DNA from: Betaproteobacteria bacterium
Lineage (GTDB): Bacteria; Pseudomonadota; Gammaproteobacteria; Burkholderiales; SG8-41
NCBI GenBank assembly: GCA_046339595.1
Contig: JBKDUF010000046.1
Coordinates: 1,717-65,716, forward strand
DNA: 64,000 nucleotides
Reading direction: 5' to 3'
Below the pieces are notes generated by a model that saw only the letters and a program-made list of their open reading frames with translations, did not search any database and had not been told where the DNA came from. This document shows positions 7,512 through 56,642 of this stretch, piece by piece. Numbering within the stretch: the stretch's first letter is position 1; every line of letters begins with the position of its first letter. The translations under genes were made by a program, and so were the position numbers.

Positions 7512-8495
7512 TCAATTGCCGGGTTTGAGGAGGCTCATCTCCTTGTTCAGGCGCATATAGGTCTTTTCCTCTTCTTCGAAGAAGGCAACCAGCGCCGGCC
7601 CCGTGGTCCAGCTGTCGACCAGCGCGTTGCGGGAAACGTACTCCTTCCACTGCTTGGTCTCGCGCACCTTGGCCAGTGCCTGCACCCAATACTGGGCGGC
7701 CTCGGCGCTGATGCCTTGGGGCGCCATCACACCGCGGAACTGCTTCGGGAAACGCGCGTTTATGCCAACATCCTGAAACCGCGGAACATCCGGCAACAGT
7801 TCAAGCCGCTCAGTCGCAGCCAGCGCACGCAACTTGCCGGCCTTGACGTGCTGCGCCATCTCCGCCGGATTTTCCATCATGAAATGCACATGTTTGCCGA
7901 GCAACTGCGGAATCGCCTCTCCGGCGCCGCGAAACGGAGTGTAGGAAAACTGCACACCGCCAAAATCCTCGAAAATCTTGCCCGCCATCGATGCACTGCT
8001 GCCATAGGAACCACCGCCCTGCAGGATCTGCTTGGGTTTTTGCCTTGCCGCATCCAGCAGGTCTCGCGGCGTACGCCATGAGCTCTCGGCATTGACCACC
8101 AGCAGCATTGGGTCTACCGCCATCAGCGCGATCGGCGTGAAACTGCGCCAGCCCGTATCGGAATTGATGAGCAGCGGCAGGTTGAGGCTCTGCGGCGTGT
8201 AGGCTGCCAGCATGTGCGGGTTGCCCTTGTTCTGGAAGGTCACATAGCGGCGAGCCTTCTCACCCTGGGAACCGGTCACCGACTCCACCGCAACCTGGCG
8301 GGGCACGATCTTGTTCTTGTTCATGATGTCGGCAATCTCTCGCAACATCAGCTCGTTACCTGTGCCAGGCGCGGAATGGGTGACCATGACCACGCGCTCG
8401 GTAGGCGCCCATTGCGCGAGTGCGCTGCCAGTAACGGACAACGCCAGCGCGCCCGCGGTGATTGCAGCAGTACGGCAGAAAGTCGTGCCATTCAT
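7512..8495 (-). CDS. tctC: tripartite tricarboxylate transporter substrate-binding protein TctC
   Basis: ORF trimmed to ATG 8495, preceded by GGAGGAGACCATC. Signal peptide MNGTTFCRTAAITAGALALSVTGSALA. FSYTPFRGAGEA and KAGKLRALA motifs. First gene of the tctCBA unit. Confidence 0.88.
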   Translation of the reverse strand: MNGTTFCRTAAITAGALALSVTGSALAQWAPTERVVMVTHSAPGTGNELMLREIADIMNKNKIVPRQVAVESVTGSQGEKARRYVTFQNKGNPHMLAAYTPQSLNLPLLINSDTGWRSFTPIALMAVDPMLLVVNAESSWRTPRDLLDAARQKPKQILQGGGSYGSSASMAGKIFEDFGGVQFSYTPFRGAGEAIPQLLGKHVHFMMENPAEMAQHVKAGKLRALAATERLELLPDVPRFQDVGINARFPKQFRGVMAPQGISAEAAQYWVQALAKVRETKQWKEYVSRNALVDSWTTGPALVAFFEEEEKTYMRLNKEMSLLKPGN

Positions 8496-53124: not shown

Positions 53125-53194
53125 GGCTTCCTCCCTGAGAAGCACTGCTCACAGCGGGCCGACGGACCAAAGCCCGCCGGCCGGGTGTAAAAAT

Positions 53195-53728
53195 CTACTG
53201 ATGGCCTTTCAACAACAGGTCCACCACCTGGGGCGCGATCTCCGCCGCGCGCTGGTCCATCTGTTCCGGCGTCAGGTTGGCGATCGGGTGCGGCATGACC
53301 AGGAACTTCAGGTCCGGCACGCCCCAGGTCTTCGCCATCGCCTTGCCCGTCACCGTGAACACGTGGGTGACGATGGACGCCGAAGGAATCCCCTGCTGCT
53401 CAAATACGATGCTGTCGAGCACACTGCCCGAGCTGCATGACCCTCAATCGCCGACGCCTGCAACGATGATGTCGCAGTTCTGCTTGTACTCGGCAATCAT
53501 CTCCGGGCCGGGGGCCGAACCGGCGCTTTTCTTTTTGCGGATCACATGCGACTTCGCACCGTGTTCCTTCTCGAGGATCGCTGCGATGCGCATCAGCAGC
53601 TGGTCGGAGTTGTGCTTGGTGTTGTCGACCAGACCGATGCGCAGGCCCTGGAGCGACTTCGGCCGCGGCACGAAGTTGATCTTGCGACTGCTGGTTTCGG
53701 TGGTGGGATCGTAGATCTGGATGCTCAT
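53195..53728 (-). CDS. UGSC-motif selenoprotein (in-frame UGA at 53444..53446 read as Sec), function unknown
   Basis: ORFs 53444..53728 and 53195..53422 share one frame and are separated only by TGA plus 7 sense codons. Product: ...IIVAGVGD-U-GSCSSGSVLDSIVFEQQ... SD TAGGAGA precedes ATG 53728. The downstream part has no ATG or SD of its own. Confidence 0.75.
53409..53438 (-). promoter_or_regulatory. candidate bacterial SECIS hairpin for the UGSC gene
   Basis: mRNA +6..+35 after the UGA. Lower stem AUGC/GCAU, 3x2 internal loop, upper stem UCGGGC/GCUCGA (one G-U pair), apical loop AGUGU. Folded by hand only. Confidence 0.45.
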
Positions 53729-53782
53729 GGCGATCTCCTAAATAAAAATCAATTAAAACAATGGGTTGAATACACCCACATT

Positions 53783-54820
53783 TCAAGGACACCGGATTTC
53801 CCGGGTAACACTCTGCGAACCGTTCTTGCCGCCCCAGCCGGGGATGTAACAGGACTGCACGCCGGCCTTGCCGCCGGCGGCGATGACCAGCAAATCCTGC
53901 GGCGTGTGCACCAGCGGCTGCATCGTGGCTTCGGATTCGGCGGTGACCGGGCCGGGGCGTATGTTGGCGCGCTGCATCTCGGCCTGCGACAACTGGCTGT
54001 GCTCGAACACATAACGCTGCACATCCTCGCGCGACCAGCCCGCCTTCTGCATGATCAGCTGGTGCTCGCCGGCGAACACCATCGCGTACTGCGGCTGGCG
54101 GTTGGTGCCGGCCGAGAAGCGCATCTGCGCACAGGCCGTGGTCAGCACGCCTTCGGGCGTCGCACTGAGGCCGTTCGAATACTGATGCACGCCAAGGGCT
54201 GCGAAAATCGTCACCGCGTTATGCTCCGGCTTGAAGCCGCGCGTGGTGTGGAAAGGCGGCCACGGGCTGTCCACCTCGTTCTCGGCGATGCAGAAGGTGT
54301 ATTTGCCGGGGTGGCCGAGGCTGGAGCGGTCGAGCACCCCGGGCGTGGTGCCGATCACGTTCTGCATCACGAGGCGGATGGCGCGGCCGATGGTGGCATT
54401 GGCGCGCCAGCCCTGGCCGAACACGTTATCGCCGCTGTTGATGTTGAGCTGTTTCGCGATCGGGCCGTTGACCAGCATGAACACCGCCGAGCCGCCGGTG
54501 CTGGTTGCCGGGCCGTGGTAGCCGTAGAGCGGATCGGCCAGCGCCTCGACGGTGGCGGTGATCACGGGCATGAACTCCGGCTTGCAGCCAGCCATCACCG
54601 CGTTGATCGCGACCTTCTCGGCGGTCACCGAGACCTGGCGGTTTTCGATGAACGAAAGTTGTTTACCCGGTTCGAGGCCGCCGGCTTCAAGCATCGCGGC
54701 GATCCGCGACGCGGTCGGCGGAATCACCGGCAGGCCGTCGGTCCAGCCATTCGCATAGCAGAGCTCGATGGCGCTGCCTTCGTCGTCGGCCGTCAGCCGG
54801 CGGGACTTCAGTTCGATCAT
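53783..54820 (-). CDS. uncharacterised 345-aa protein immediately upstream of the UGSC selenoprotein gene
   Basis: ORF trimmed to ATG 54820 (SD GGAGGAG). MIELKSRRLTADDEGSAIELCYANGWTDGLPVIPPT... I recognise no named domain. Soluble-looking. Only 54 bp separate it from the UGSC gene. Confidence 0.75.
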   Translation of the reverse strand: MIELKSRRLTADDEGSAIELCYANGWTDGLPVIPPTASRIAAMLEAGGLEPGKQLSFIENRQVSVTAEKVAINAVMAGCKPEFMPVITATVEALADPLYGYHGPATSTGGSAVFMLVNGPIAKQLNINSGDNVFGQGWRANATIGRAIRLVMQNVIGTTPGVLDRSSLGHPGKYTFCIAENEVDSPWPPFHTTRGFKPEHNAVTIFAALGVHQYSNGLSATPEGVLTTACAQMRFSAGTNRQPQYAMVFAGEHQLIMQKAGWSREDVQRYVFEHSQLSQAEMQRANIRPGPVTAESEATMQPLVHTPQDLLVIAAGGKAGVQSCYIPGWGGKNGSQSVTREIRCP

Positions 54821-54963
54821 GCCGCTCCTCCGCTGCGCTTGCTCCGGACGGGCAAGTCTGCAGATCAGTCTACCGCAGTTCACCGGGAACGCCTGGCGCC
54901 GCATCCACATCATGGGCCGGGGACTCTGCTAAGGTGGCAACCTCGTCACCATCCATGCCTGCC

Positions 54964-55293
54964 ATGACCGAACTCGTCCTGCTCGCCACCGTTGTTGCCC
55001 TCGCCTGGCTGTGGTGGGACAGCATGCAGGCGCGCGAAGCCGCGGTCACGGCGGCGCGCGCCGCCTGCGAAGCGGAGGGTCTGCAGTTCCTTGACGACAC
55101 GGTCGGCATCGCCTCGCTGCGCCCGGCGCGCAACGCCGGGGGCCGTCTGCTTCTGCAGCGTGCCTACGATTTCGAGTTCAGCGACACCGGCGACAACCGC
55201 ATCCGCGGCAGCGTGGTCACGTTAGGCCGGCGGGTGATCCTGCTGCGCGTACTGCCGCCGCAGCCGGTGGCAACCGTCACCCGCATCCGCTGA
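54964..55293 (+). CDS. DUF3301-family small membrane-anchored protein
   Basis: MTELVLLATVVALAWLWWDSMQAREAAVTAARAACEAEGLQFLDDTV...YDFEFSDTGDNR matches my recollection of the DUF3301 pattern. The ORF could also start at 54934. Confidence 0.7.
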   Translation: MTELVLLATVVALAWLWWDSMQAREAAVTAARAACEAEGLQFLDDTVGIASLRPARNAGGRLLLQRAYDFEFSDTGDNRIRGSVVTLGRRVILLRVLPPQPVATVTRIR

Positions 55294-56180: not shown

Positions 56181-56642
56181 TCAGAGCTTGCGGATTTCCG
56201 CCAGCAGCTCATCACTGGCAGGGATCGTGCCCTGCGGGTAGACCTTGGCGTAGCGGATGACGCCCCCCGCATCGATGACGTAGGCGGCGCGCTTGTCGAT
56301 ACCGCGTTCCTCGTTGAAGATGCCAAAGGCCCTGCCCACCGCGCCATGCGGCCAGAAATCCGACAGCAGCGGGAACGGCACCCCGCCGAGGACATCGGCC
56401 CAGCCCTTCAGGCTCGGCGTCGGGTCTATGCTCAACTGCAGGATCTCGGTGTTGAGCGCCTTGAATTTGTCGTAGTTCTCACGGAACCCACGGACTTGAT
56501 TGGTTCACCCGCCGGTAAATGCAAAAGGCATGAACGCGACCACGACCGGCCGGCCGCGGAACGCGGACAGCGTGACCTTCTGGTCGGAATTGTGCGCGGC
56601 CAGCGAAAAATCGGGCGCGGCGCTGCCAGCTTGAATTTCCAT
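56181..56642 (-). CDS. AhpE-like 1-Cys-type peroxiredoxin with selenocysteine at the peroxidatic position (UGA 56505..56507)
   Basis: ATG 56642 (SD GGGAGAA) gives MEIQAGSAAPDFSL...VVVAFMPFAFTGG-U-TNQVRGFRENYDKFKALNTEILQLSIDPTPSLKGW...FPLLSDFWPHGAVGRAFGIFNE... The UGA falls exactly in the PxxxTxxC signature. The two track ORFs (the tail of 56505..57320, and 56181..56435) are in one frame. Confidence 0.8.
56469..56495 (-). promoter_or_regulatory. candidate bacterial SECIS hairpin for the peroxiredoxin gene
   Basis: mRNA +10..+36 after the UGA: GU(C)CGU(G)GGUUC-CGUGA-GAACUACGAC. Ten pairs with two single-nucleotide bulges and a 5-nt loop. Folded by hand only. Confidence 0.5.

What the first reader, a model, noticed from the sequence alone, without database searches (positions are those of the whole stretch)
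53195..53728. In-frame UGA fuses two 'short ORFs' into one UGSC-motif selenoprotein gene of unknown function
On the minus strand, ORFs 53444..53728 and 53195..53422 are in the same frame. They are separated only by TGA (53444..53446) and seven sense codons.

Reading through gives a single 177-codon product: ...NCDIIVAGVGD-U-GSCSSGSVLDSIVFEQQGIPSASIV... The upstream part has a good SD (TAGGAGATCGCC-ATG). The downstream ORF has neither an ATG nor an SD; its listed M is an internal GTG.

The UGA sits in a U-x-x-C redox-type motif. A hand-paired hairpin lies 6-35 nt 3' of it (53409..53438), where a bacterial SECIS would be expected.

From memory, NCBI family models include a 'UGSC family (seleno)protein' with no assigned function; I cannot verify membership here. 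The C-terminal half (GIPSASIV...GKAMAKTWGVP...MPHPI) loosely recalls GrdB/PrdB-type reductase B-subunit folds. That resemblance is a weak inference.
Basis: partly seen in the sequence, partly recalled or inferred. Interest (0 to 1): 0.8.

Follow-up and report, generated by a model that had tools for sequence, protein, structure and literature searches.

The report
UGSC selenoprotein gene with obligate partner
The two "short ORFs" are one gene for a selenocysteine-containing protein of the already catalogued UGSC family, whose function is unknown; here it proves to be tied to a large unannotated partner protein, which gives a concrete way to find out what it does.

Summary
ORFs 53728..53444 and 53422..53195 (minus strand) form one 177-codon gene interrupted only by TGA at 53446..53444.

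**Family.** The read-through protein passes the curated cut-offs of NCBIfam NF041046 and Pfam PF24696 (UGSC family).

**Sec decoding.**
- All 80 related genomes keep TGA at that codon. Full-length database homologues have Cys there.
Synonymous sites are frozen in Sec forms and free in Cys forms encoding the same peptide. Compensatory base-pair changes occur at two stem pairs.
- TGA is the ordinary stop codon of neighbouring genes.
- A second TGA-recoded gene, a peroxiredoxin, lies 3 kb away.

**Prior knowledge.** The family has been published since 2007/2008, so the gene is a new member of a known kind with no assigned function.

**Added here.**
- UGSC is always adjacent to, and often fused with, a 345-aa protein (54820..53783). 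That protein belongs to a very large family with no Pfam, NCBIfam or PDB match.
- One lineage fuses that partner to a thioredoxin-reductase-like flavoprotein.
- The predicted UGSC fold is flavodoxin/Rossmann-like, not thioredoxin-like as the literature guessed.
- The GrdB/PrdB resemblance is in register at the Sec residue but statistically weak.

The parts
53195..53728 (-). UGSC-family selenoprotein gene, 177 sense codons plus a TAG stop. Single CDS with Sec at codon 95.
   Evidence: Translation. NF041046 scores 153.2 bits and PF24696 scores 199.9 bits over the full profile. Orthologues in 80 genomes match residues 1-177.
53735..53739 (-). Shine-Dalgarno sequence AGGAG, 6 nt upstream of the UGSC start codon.
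   Evidence: Read directly from the sequence.
53444..53446 (-). In-frame TGA, the Sec95 codon.
   Evidence: TGA in 80/80 related loci. Cys in full-length database homologues, and about 20 database 'proteins' truncated exactly at residue 94.
53435..53437 (-). TGC codon for Cys98, the proposed resolving Cys of the U-G-S-C motif.
   Evidence: Invariant column C98 in alignment A2.
53409..53438 (-). Bacterial SECIS hairpin. Lower stem 53438-53435 / 53412-53409; upper 6-bp stem 53431-53426 / 53420-53415; apical loop AGUGU 53425-53421. The upper stem starts 12 nt after the UGA.
   Evidence: RNAalifold consensus. The upper stem is paired in 100% of cells, with a CG<->GC swap in 7 distinct sequences. 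Synonymous-codon entropy is 0.32 bits for codons 96-106 against 0.96 and 1.10 in the flanks, and this constraint is relaxed in Cys forms. A distant Sec form, L087, keeps a stem at the same offset with two compensated pairs. The rival MFE hairpin is broken in 8 sequences.
53783..54820 (-). Partner gene, 345 aa, true start at ATG 54820 with TGA stop. It belongs to a large family with no Pfam or NCBIfam model and is probably co-transcribed with UGSC (55-nt spacer).
   Evidence: Homologues are 344-347 aa and start at this Met. The gene is adjacent to UGSC in every locus that has enough sequence. It is fused to UGSC in 37 of 150 representatives. No family or PDB match was found.
54825..54830 (-). 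Shine-Dalgarno sequence GAGGAG of the partner gene.
   Evidence: Read directly from the sequence.
54584..54586 (-). Codon for partner Cys79 (motif M-A-G-C-x-P). It is the only Cys conserved from Proteobacteria to Actinobacteria and is a candidate active-site or relay thiol.
   Evidence: Alignments A3 and A6 and the four-way alignment. The motif is retained in the fusion proteins.

Best explanation
**Shown.**
- 53728..53195 is one gene for a UGSC-family selenoprotein.
- UGA95 lies in a context that is strongly selected: the TGA is conserved, a SECIS hairpin starts 12 nt downstream, and Cys occupies the site in other lineages.
- TGA is otherwise a stop codon in this genome.
- The gene forms a conserved two-gene unit with the upstream 345-aa gene. 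In many organisms the two are one fused polypeptide, and in one lineage the partner is fused to a thioredoxin-reductase-like flavoprotein.

**Inferred.**
- SelB/Sec-tRNA reads UGA95 as selenocysteine.
- Sec95 sits at the N-terminus of helix 3 of a flavodoxin/Rossmann-like domain and, with Cys98, forms a selenenylsulfide redox couple.
- UGSC and the partner assemble into one cytoplasmic enzyme. The partner, with invariant Cys79, supplies the substrate site, and the selenolate is the attacking nucleophile.
- The oxidised U-x-x-C is re-reduced by NAD(P)H through a thioredoxin-reductase-type system. That system is dedicated in some genomes and presumably the housekeeping one here.
- The chemistry is most likely a reductive cleavage or reduction of a small organic substrate feeding into acyl-CoA-type catabolism, formally like PrdB/GrdB. 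The substrate is unknown.
For: **Gene and family.**

**Recoding.**
- TGA is conserved in 80/80 loci.
- Homologues show the Cys column, and many database proteins are truncated at residue 94.
- P0003's 'W' at this column is really a TGA.
- TGA is the normal stop for 8 of 11 neighbouring genes, including the partner.

**SECIS.**

**Sec use in this lineage.** A second TGA-interrupted gene, an AhpC/TSA peroxiredoxin, has its TGA conserved in at least 9 relatives.

**Partner linkage.**
- Adjacency holds in all informative loci among L001-L080.
- It also holds in Actinobacteria and Paraburkholderia and in five further Cys-form loci, with 4-nt gene overlaps.
- Among 150 representatives there are 32 UGSC-partner and 5 partner-UGSC fusions.

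**Reductase link.**
- P0349 is a partner::Pyr_redox_2 fusion, sitting directly after a Sec-type UGSC gene.
- TrxB-like genes lie next to the pair in L082, L083, L089 and L093.

**Fold.** The AF2 model has pLDDT 91 and consists of five beta-alpha units, with Sec/Cys at the N-cap of helix 3.

**PrdB/GrdB register.**

**Catabolic context.** Acyl-CoA dehydrogenase, AMP-binding ligase, CoA-transferase, ETF and Amidohydro_2 genes recur near the pair.
Against: - No selA, selB, selD or tRNA-Sec was found in the 64-kb window or in any fetched flank. The rest of the genome cannot be read.
- No TrxR-like gene lies in the window or in the 80 closest loci, so the electron donor here is assumed.
- 3 of 9 complete fusion proteins have lost both redox residues and 1 has lost the second Cys. 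The UGSC domain can therefore persist without redox chemistry.
- The PrdB/GrdB similarity is not significant: hhalign E = 0.028 with probability 1.8%, and HMM scores are at most 5.6 bits.
- The partner shows no similarity to PrdA/GrdE or to any solved fold, and its model is only moderate at pLDDT 76.
- There is no expression, 75Se-labelling or activity evidence.
Confidence: 0.8

Rival explanations
1. The region holds two independent short genes, or a pseudogene or sequencing error, and the TGA is simply a stop.
For: Gene callers routinely output the two halves separately. About 20 database 'proteins' end at residue 94, and L087/L088 have two called ORFs of 99 and 78 aa. The single-sequence fold of the region is no more stable than shuffles, with z = 0.56.
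Against: TGA is conserved in 80/80 species with both halves under protein-level conservation. The downstream half has no start codon or Shine-Dalgarno sequence. The halves match complementary halves of one HMM. Cys-form homologues are continuous. Synonymous sites 3' of the TGA are frozen.
Confidence: 0.02
2. The UGA is read through, but not as Sec. This could be Trp or Gly under an alternative genetic code, or Cys/Trp by near-cognate suppression.
For: One database entry (P0003) shows W at this column. The Sec machinery could not be verified.
Against: P0003's codon is TGA and its locus does not translate to the query under table 11, so it was called under another code. TGA terminates 8 of 11 neighbouring genes at family-consistent C-termini. 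A conserved hairpin with a GU-containing apical loop sits at the SECIS position. The position is Cys in homologues, which is the classical Sec/Cys pair. A second U-for-catalytic-Cys gene, a peroxiredoxin, lies nearby.
Confidence: 0.04
3. UGSC is a stand-alone thioredoxin-fold thiol/selenol oxidoreductase with a general antioxidant or disulfide-exchange role. This is the literature's working guess, and under it the neighbour is incidental.
For: The U-x-x-C motif sits at a helix N-terminus, as in thioredoxins. [quoted passage not shown] A peroxiredoxin selenoprotein lies 3 kb away.
Against: The confident AF2 model has a parallel five beta-alpha flavodoxin/Rossmann-like topology, and the top 50 Foldseek hits contain no thioredoxin-fold protein. 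UGSC is invariably adjacent to or fused with the partner across phyla. Some fusions keep the domain without its cysteines, which fits a structural subunit better than a diffusible redox carrier.
Confidence: 0.1
4. UGSC plus its partner is a true, very divergent member of the GrdB/PrdB-GrdE/PrdA pyruvoyl-dependent Stickland-type reductases. Under this reading the partner self-cleaves at a Cys to make a pyruvoyl group.
For: Recurrent weak hits link UGSC to PrdB (11/33), GrdB (6/33), selenoprotein-PB (4/33) and GrdF (2/33). The Sec and Cys columns and E(U+15)-x-x-G-I-P align in register with GOS PrdB-type selenoproteins. PrdB Sec151 (PMC11229817) corresponds to the aligned profile position. The partner has an invariant Cys.
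Against: The scores are far below the family cut-offs: 14.6 bits against 300, and hhalign probability 1.8%. The partner has no detectable similarity to PrdA/GrdE or to anything else. There is no PrdH-like maturase and no evidence of cleavage. The hosts are aerobic-type heterotrophs, not Stickland fermenters.
Confidence: 0.15

Closest known systems
UGSC-containing protein / UGSC family (seleno)protein (NCBIfam NF041046, Pfam PF24696; Zhang & Gladyshev 2007/2008)
   Same: The protein matches the HMMs over their full length and above the cut-offs. It has the same U-G-S-C motif and the same Sec/Cys alternation. As reported for the family, it comes from non-marine and environmental Proteobacteria.
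   Different: There is nothing essential that differs; this is a member of the family. The literature guessed a Trx-like fold, whereas the model here is flavodoxin/Rossmann-like. The literature mentions a fusion to an 'Unknown_1' domain only in passing. Here the partner is shown to be obligatory, very widespread and occasionally fused to a TrxR-like flavoprotein.
Selenoprotein B of D-proline / glycine / sarcosine / betaine reductases (PrdB, GrdB, GrdF; Pfam PF07355, TIGR04483, TIGR01917)
   Same: The local pattern is shared: beta-strand, U-x-x-C, helix, E-x-x-G-I-P-T/S, beta-strand, in register with the catalytic Sec. Both work as one subunit of a multi-subunit enzyme. In both, the oxidised Se-S form would need an external reductant.
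   Different: The similarity is below significance. UGSC is much shorter, at 177 aa against about 240-440 aa. The partner is unrelated to the pyruvoyl subunits PrdA/GrdE. The genomic context is aerobic catabolic clusters, not prd/grd operons.
Thioredoxin-fold UxxC/CxxU selenoproteins (Trx-like, Prx-like, SelW-like, DsbA-like)
   Same: A redox motif with Sec plus a resolving Cys sits at a helix N-terminus, and Cys-form homologues exist.
   Different: The predicted fold is not thioredoxin-like. UGSC is tied to a dedicated partner protein.
Bacterial SECIS elements such as E. coli fdhF/fdnG (established knowledge: a minimal 17-nt upper stem-loop about 11 nt 3' of the UGA, with G-U in the apical loop)
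   Same: A 17-nt upper stem-loop (6 + 5 + 6) starts 12 nt after the UGA. The apical loop A-G-U-G-U carries GU. A lower stem is separated from it by an internal loop.
   Different: The sequence is family-specific, and no Rfam model matches it. No bulged U was identified. Binding to SelB has not been tested.

Membership tests
UGSC family (NF041046 / PF24696) | HMM score above the curated cut-off, covering the whole profile | tested here: met
   NF041046 scores 153.2 bits (cut-off 125) over profile 2-146 of 147. PF24696 scores 199.9 bits (cut-off 25) over 1-171 of 172. The N half matches profile 2-68 and the C half matches 70-146.
UGSC family (NF041046 / PF24696) | U/C-G-S-C motif at the conserved column | tested here: met
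   G-V-G-D-U-G-S-C-S aligns with the invariant G91-V-G-D-C-G-x-C-S of 32 homologues.
Bacterial selenoprotein gene | In-frame UGA conserved among orthologues, with protein conservation on both sides | tested here: met
   80/80 loci have the TGA, and tblastn matches cover residues 1-177.
Bacterial selenoprotein gene | Cys-containing homologues at the Sec position | tested here: met
   All full-length database homologues that keep the motif have Cys at this column. The one apparent exception, W in P0003, is a TGA codon.
Bacterial selenoprotein gene | SECIS stem-loop immediately 3' of the UGA, under selection | tested here: met
   Synonymous-site freezing is specific to Sec forms. The stem is 100% paired, with compensatory changes at pairs 21-27 and 19-29. 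The position and GU loop match the bacterial consensus.
Bacterial selenoprotein gene | selA, selB, selC (tRNA-Sec) and selD present in the genome | not testable with these tools
   None of these lies in the 64-kb window or in the flanks of L001-L083, and the rest of the genome is unavailable. Indirect support comes from a second TGA-recoded gene (a peroxiredoxin), conserved in at least 9 relatives.
Bacterial selenoprotein gene | Selenium actually incorporated (75Se labelling or mass spectrometry) | not testable with these tools
   This is an experimental test.
Thioredoxin-fold oxidoreductases | Thioredoxin fold (mixed sheet, beta-alpha-beta-alpha-beta-beta-alpha) | tested here: not met
   The AF2 model of Cys homologue P0001 (60% identical; pLDDT 91) has five parallel beta-alpha units. 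The best Foldseek hits are CheY-like, FMN-reductase and lumazine-synthase folds with TM at most 0.51.
GrdB/PrdB selenoprotein B (PF07355, TIGR04483) | HMM score above the curated cut-off | tested here: not met
   TIGR04483 scores 14.6 bits against a cut-off of 300. Pfam GRDB gives no hit.
GrdB/PrdB selenoprotein B (PF07355, TIGR04483) | Catalytic U-x-x-C aligned with that of PrdB/GrdB | tested here: inconclusive
   The alignment is in register in hhalign (E = 0.028, probability 1.8%) and in 5 of 9 HMM alignments. Per-sequence P values run from 5e-4 to 0.05, against a reversed-control best of 0.044.
GrdB/PrdB selenoprotein B (PF07355, TIGR04483) | Pyruvoyl proprotein partner (PrdA/GrdE) encoded alongside | tested here: not met
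   The adjacent 345-aa protein has no Pfam, NCBIfam or PDB similarity to anything, PrdA/GrdE included.

The most novel reading that the evidence does not exclude
UGSC and the unannotated 345-aa 'partner' together constitute a previously unrecognised class of selenium- or cysteine-dependent two-subunit reductase. In many organisms the two are fused. The enzyme would be recycled by a thioredoxin-reductase-type flavoprotein and would be anciently related to the Sec-bearing core of the Stickland reductases GrdB/PrdB. It would operate in aerobic heterotrophs on an unknown catabolic substrate, with a substrate-binding subunit of novel fold.
Probability: 0.25. Interest if true: 0.7.

Novelty: new member of a known kind. 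Interest (0 to 1): 0.4.

Why it matters
[quoted passage not shown] The 2026 review (PMC13188914) still lists its function as uncharacterised.

This particular gene adds little on its own, being one more member that gene callers mis-annotate as two ORFs. The context analysis, however, turns an orphan into a testable system:
- a fixed two-protein unit, frequently fused;
- a very large partner family with no model in Pfam or NCBIfam (5,067 clusters at 50% identity);
- a recurrent thioredoxin-reductase-type electron donor;
- recurrent acyl-CoA catabolic neighbours.

This tells an experimenter which proteins to co-express and which reductant to supply. It also corrects the assumed Trx-like fold.

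Tried and rejected
1. **Rfam.** No family matched at gathering thresholds over the whole window or at E <= 10 over 53150-53800. No curated model covers this SECIS.
2. **Single-sequence folding.** The region is not more stable than shuffles, with z = 0.56. Its MFE hairpin (cols 25-29 / 34-38) is contradicted by 8 sequences and was rejected in favour of the covarying stem.
3. **PDB sequence and profile searches.** Searches for both proteins returned nothing meaningful.
4. **Foldseek.** UGSC gave only generic flavodoxin-like matches, and the partner gave no significant match (best E = 0.012, TM 0.27).
5. **Partner as a PrdA/GrdE analogue.** There is no sequence support, with only singleton chance hits in NCBIfam and Pfam across 46 diverse members.
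6. **'Unknown_1' of the GOS paper.** The supplementary alignment is stored as an image, so identity with the partner could not be verified. It remains a likely but unproven equivalence.
7. **Sec machinery.** E. coli SelA/SelB/SelD queries found nothing in the window or in any fetched locus, and ARAGORN found no tRNA.
9. **First SECIS control with 3 Cys forms.** This was ambiguous. It was resolved by adding five more Cys-form genes.
10. **The ~480-nt gap upstream of the partner.** It is not regulatory RNA but a DUF3301 gene on the other strand.
11. **The terminator-like hairpin between the two genes.** It is within the chance expectation.
Full report
**1. The observation.**

On the minus strand, the frame that starts at ATG 53728 stays open to TAG 53197..53195 apart from one TGA at 53446..53444, which is codon 95. 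A Shine-Dalgarno AGGAG lies 6 nt upstream of the ATG. The 'second ORF' in a mechanical ORF list (53422..53195) begins at an internal GTG with no ribosome-binding site.

**2. One gene of a known family.**

With U replaced by C, the protein scores 153.2 bits on NCBIfam NF041046, 'UGSC family (seleno)protein' (cut-off 125), and 199.9 bits on Pfam PF24696, 'UGSC family'. The N-terminal piece alone matches profile positions 2-68 and the C-terminal piece matches 70-146, so the two ORFs are the two halves of one domain.

**3. Conservation of the TGA.**

- A scan of one genome per species returned 80 loci, all uncultured Burkholderiales/Betaproteobacteria, 64-95% identical in protein, matching residues 1-177.
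- In 80 of 80 the aligned codon is TGA and the frame is open on both sides.
- In the protein database, full-length homologues have Cys at this column (D-C-G-S-C). About 20 predicted 'proteins' stop exactly at ...GxGD, residue 94, so they are truncated Sec forms.
- One entry with Trp at the column (P0003) has TGA in its DNA and was evidently called under another genetic code.
- TGA is the ordinary stop codon of 8 of 11 neighbouring genes. This includes the gene immediately upstream, whose C-terminus ...TREIRCP* matches its family consensus.

Sequencing error, pseudogene, two separate genes and genome-wide TGA reassignment are therefore excluded.

**4. The SECIS.**

- Across the Sec-form orthologues, mean synonymous-codon entropy is 0.32 bits for codons 96-106, against 0.96 bits upstream and 1.10 bits downstream. 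Six-fold degenerate Ser100 and Leu104 use one codon in 80 of 80 sequences.
- The upper stem is paired in 100% of cells. Its closing pair switches C-G to G-C in 7 distinct sequences, and slid controls reach only 24-58% pairing.
- The thermodynamically preferred hairpin of the single sequence is broken by those same substitutions.
- As a natural control, six Cys-form genes encoding the identical peptide GSCSSGSVLD vary freely at the sites that are frozen in Sec forms, and they lack the AGUGU loop.
- Two more distant Sec forms keep a stem at the same offset. L086 has a one-sided wobble change. L087 has two compensated pairs (G-U to U-A and C-G to G-C), and its loop still begins A-G-U.
- A 17-nt upper stem-loop starting 12 nt after the UGA, with G-U in the loop, corresponds to the minimal E. 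coli fdhF-type SECIS. That comparison rests on established knowledge, not on a test made here.
- No Rfam model matches.

**5. Sec machinery.**

No tRNA, selA, selB or selD lies in the window or in any fetched flank, and the rest of the genome cannot be read. Indirect support exists: 3 kb away, on the same strand, a second gene (56642..56181) has an in-frame TGA at 56507..56505. Its read-through product is an AhpC/TSA peroxiredoxin (112 bits across the TGA) with ...FAFTGG-U-T... at the peroxidatic-Cys position. That TGA is conserved in at least 9 relatives.

**6. What is already known.**

- The 'UGSC-containing protein' was named by Zhang and Gladyshev (PMC1976440, 2007).
- That paper guessed a Trx-like fold and noted a fusion to an 'Unknown_1' domain.
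- Reviews from 2022 and 2026 list it with NF041046 and state that its function is uncharacterised.
- Only eight papers in the library mention it.

The finding is therefore a new member of a known kind.

**7. The partner.**

- The gene directly upstream on the same strand has a mechanical ORF of 54913..53783, but its true start is ATG 54820, with GAGGAG 5 nt upstream. It encodes a 345-aa protein with no Pfam or NCBIfam match.
- Its homologues are nearly all 344-347 aa 'hypothetical proteins'. The word-indexed search saturated at 8,000 candidates. The exhaustive search found 5,067 clusters at 50% identity with E <= 1e-3, of which 1,196 had E <= 1e-30.
- The gene lies immediately next to UGSC in every one of the 80 loci that has enough upstream DNA, while the other neighbours (3-hydroxybutyrate dehydrogenase, DUF2189, ABC-F) are not retained.
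- The pairing persists in Agromyces, Pseudonocardia and Paraburkholderia. There the partners are 36-51% identical to the window's, the genes overlap by 4 nt and the order is reversed in Actinobacteria. It also persists in five further Cys-form loci.
- Among 150 representatives of the partner family, 32 are UGSC-partner fusions. Of these, 8 are complete, 1 is partial and 23 begin just after the Sec position. Another 5 are partner-UGSC fusions that end at profile position 93-94, just before the Sec, and about 7 are tandem duplications.
- One representative (P0349) is a partner fused to a thioredoxin-reductase-like Pyr_redox_2 domain. In its locus it directly follows a UGSC gene with an in-frame TGA.
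- Separate TrxB-like genes flank the pair in L082, L083, L089 and L093. None is present in the window or in the 80 close loci.
- Across phyla the only invariant partner Cys is Cys79 (M-A-G-C-x-P).
- The partner has no sequence match in the PDB and no recurrent weak family hits. Its AF2 model (pLDDT 76) has no significant Foldseek match.

**8. Fold and the GrdB/PrdB question.**

- The AF2 model of the closest natural Cys form (P0001, 60% identical) is confident (pLDDT 91, pTM 0.88). It shows five beta-alpha units with Sec/Cys95 directly after strand 3, at the N-terminus of helix 3.
- Foldseek returns only generic flavodoxin/Rossmann-like matches with TM at most 0.51 and no thioredoxin fold. The literature's fold guess is not supported.
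- GOS PrdB/GrdB-type selenoproteins taken from the 2008 supplement (5 of 9 match Pfam GRDB) align with the two Sec residues, the resolving Cys and E(U+15)-x-x-G-I-P in register.
- The statistics are weak: hhalign gives E = 0.028 and probability 1.8%, HMM scores are at most 5.6 bits, and reversed controls are only slightly worse.
- PrdB's catalytic Sec is U151 (PMC11229817), consistent with the aligned profile position.

I regard common ancestry of the Sec-bearing core as possible, at about one in three, and membership of the GrdB/PrdB family as not met.

**9. Mechanism.**

Shown: single gene, selected UGA plus SECIS, Sec/Cys alternation, obligatory partner, fusions, and the link to a TrxR-type flavoprotein.

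Inferred:
- Sec95 and Cys98 form a selenenylsulfide couple on a subunit that docks onto the partner.
- The selenolate attacks a substrate held by the partner.
- Cys98 resolves the adduct.
- The Se-S bond is re-reduced by NAD(P)H through thioredoxin reductase or thioredoxin. That reductant is dedicated in some genomes and presumably the housekeeping one here.

The recurrent neighbours point to catabolism of an organic acid, but the substrate is unknown. These neighbours are acyl-CoA dehydrogenase, AMP-binding ligase, CoA-transferase, ETF, enoyl-CoA hydratase, Amidohydro_2 and GntR/MarR regulators.

As a caution, 3 of 9 complete fusion proteins lack both redox residues and one lacks the second Cys. 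The domain therefore also has a structural role in the complex.

**10. Verdict.**

It is not novel as a kind. Its value lies in the partner/fusion/TrxR context, which makes the function of a very abundant orphan selenoprotein family experimentally approachable. Interest is 0.4.

Noticed in passing
window 56181..56642 (minus strand); TGA at 56505..56507: A second selenoprotein gene. A 153-aa AhpC/TSA peroxiredoxin has an in-frame TGA at the peroxidatic-Cys position (...FAFTGG-U-TNQVRGF...), followed by a hairpin with a CCGUG loop. The TGA is conserved in at least 9 related genomes. A mechanical ORF list splits it into two pieces.
   Followed up: partly
window 53783..54820 (minus strand); P0207-P0356: The 345-aa partner belongs to a very large, highly conserved family: 5,067 clusters at 50% identity, and more than 8,000 at 90%. 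It has no Pfam, NCBIfam or PDB counterpart. It includes tandem-duplicated forms of about 710 aa, and forms with unexplained N- or C-terminal extensions of 70-190 aa.
   Followed up: partly
L083:6552-6827, L090:2064-2321, L091:2052-2312, L092:2046-2303, L093:2062-2313: In Cys-form Burkholderiales loci, an 83-91-aa ORF with no Pfam domain follows UGSC directly. It carries an invariant A-C-E-D/E-C-L-V-P-K (CxxC) motif and may be a third redox component. It is absent from the window and from the 80 Sec-form loci.
   Followed up: partly
P0228, P0248, P0255, P0322 (UGSC-partner fusion proteins): Some complete fusions have lost one or both residues of the U/C-x-x-C motif (for example GHCGASSS, AEIGGSLF, GDAGSLR). 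These are redox-dead UGSC domains retained within the enzyme.
   Followed up: no
window 54934..55293 (plus strand): The apparent 480-nt intergenic gap upstream of the partner is a DUF3301 gene on the opposite strand (99.8 bits), conserved at 72-85% nucleotide identity in relatives. The 5' extension of the partner's ORF to 54913 is spurious.
   Followed up: yes
window 53761..53779 (minus strand): A weak terminator-like hairpin (GTGGGTGTATTCAACCCAT followed by TGTTTTAATT) lies between the partner stop and the UGSC start. The number of such sites in the region is within the shuffle expectation, and its conservation was not examined.
   Followed up: no
P0057 (NCBI, Candidatus Rokubacteria, partial protein): This entry shows Arg at the Sec/Cys column (GIGD-R-GSCSSGSVL). 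Whether this is a real CGA/AGA codon or an annotation artefact was not checked.
   Followed up: no
L033, L036, L042, L077; L021, L048, L052 and others: Several MAG records carrying this betaproteobacterial locus (about 75% identical to the window's proteins) are titled 'uncultured Streptomycetaceae' or 'Bordetella parapertussis'. These are probably taxonomic mislabels of metagenome bins.
   Followed up: no
L087:4435-7088 and L088:487-3140: This operon contains a Sec-type UGSC gene (called as two ORFs of 99 and 78 aa), then a partner::thioredoxin-reductase-like fusion (695 aa), then NAD-dependent epimerase-like and SDR genes. Upstream lie divergent acyl-CoA dehydrogenase, AMP-ligase and MarR genes. 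It is the most complete version of the system seen.
   Followed up: partly
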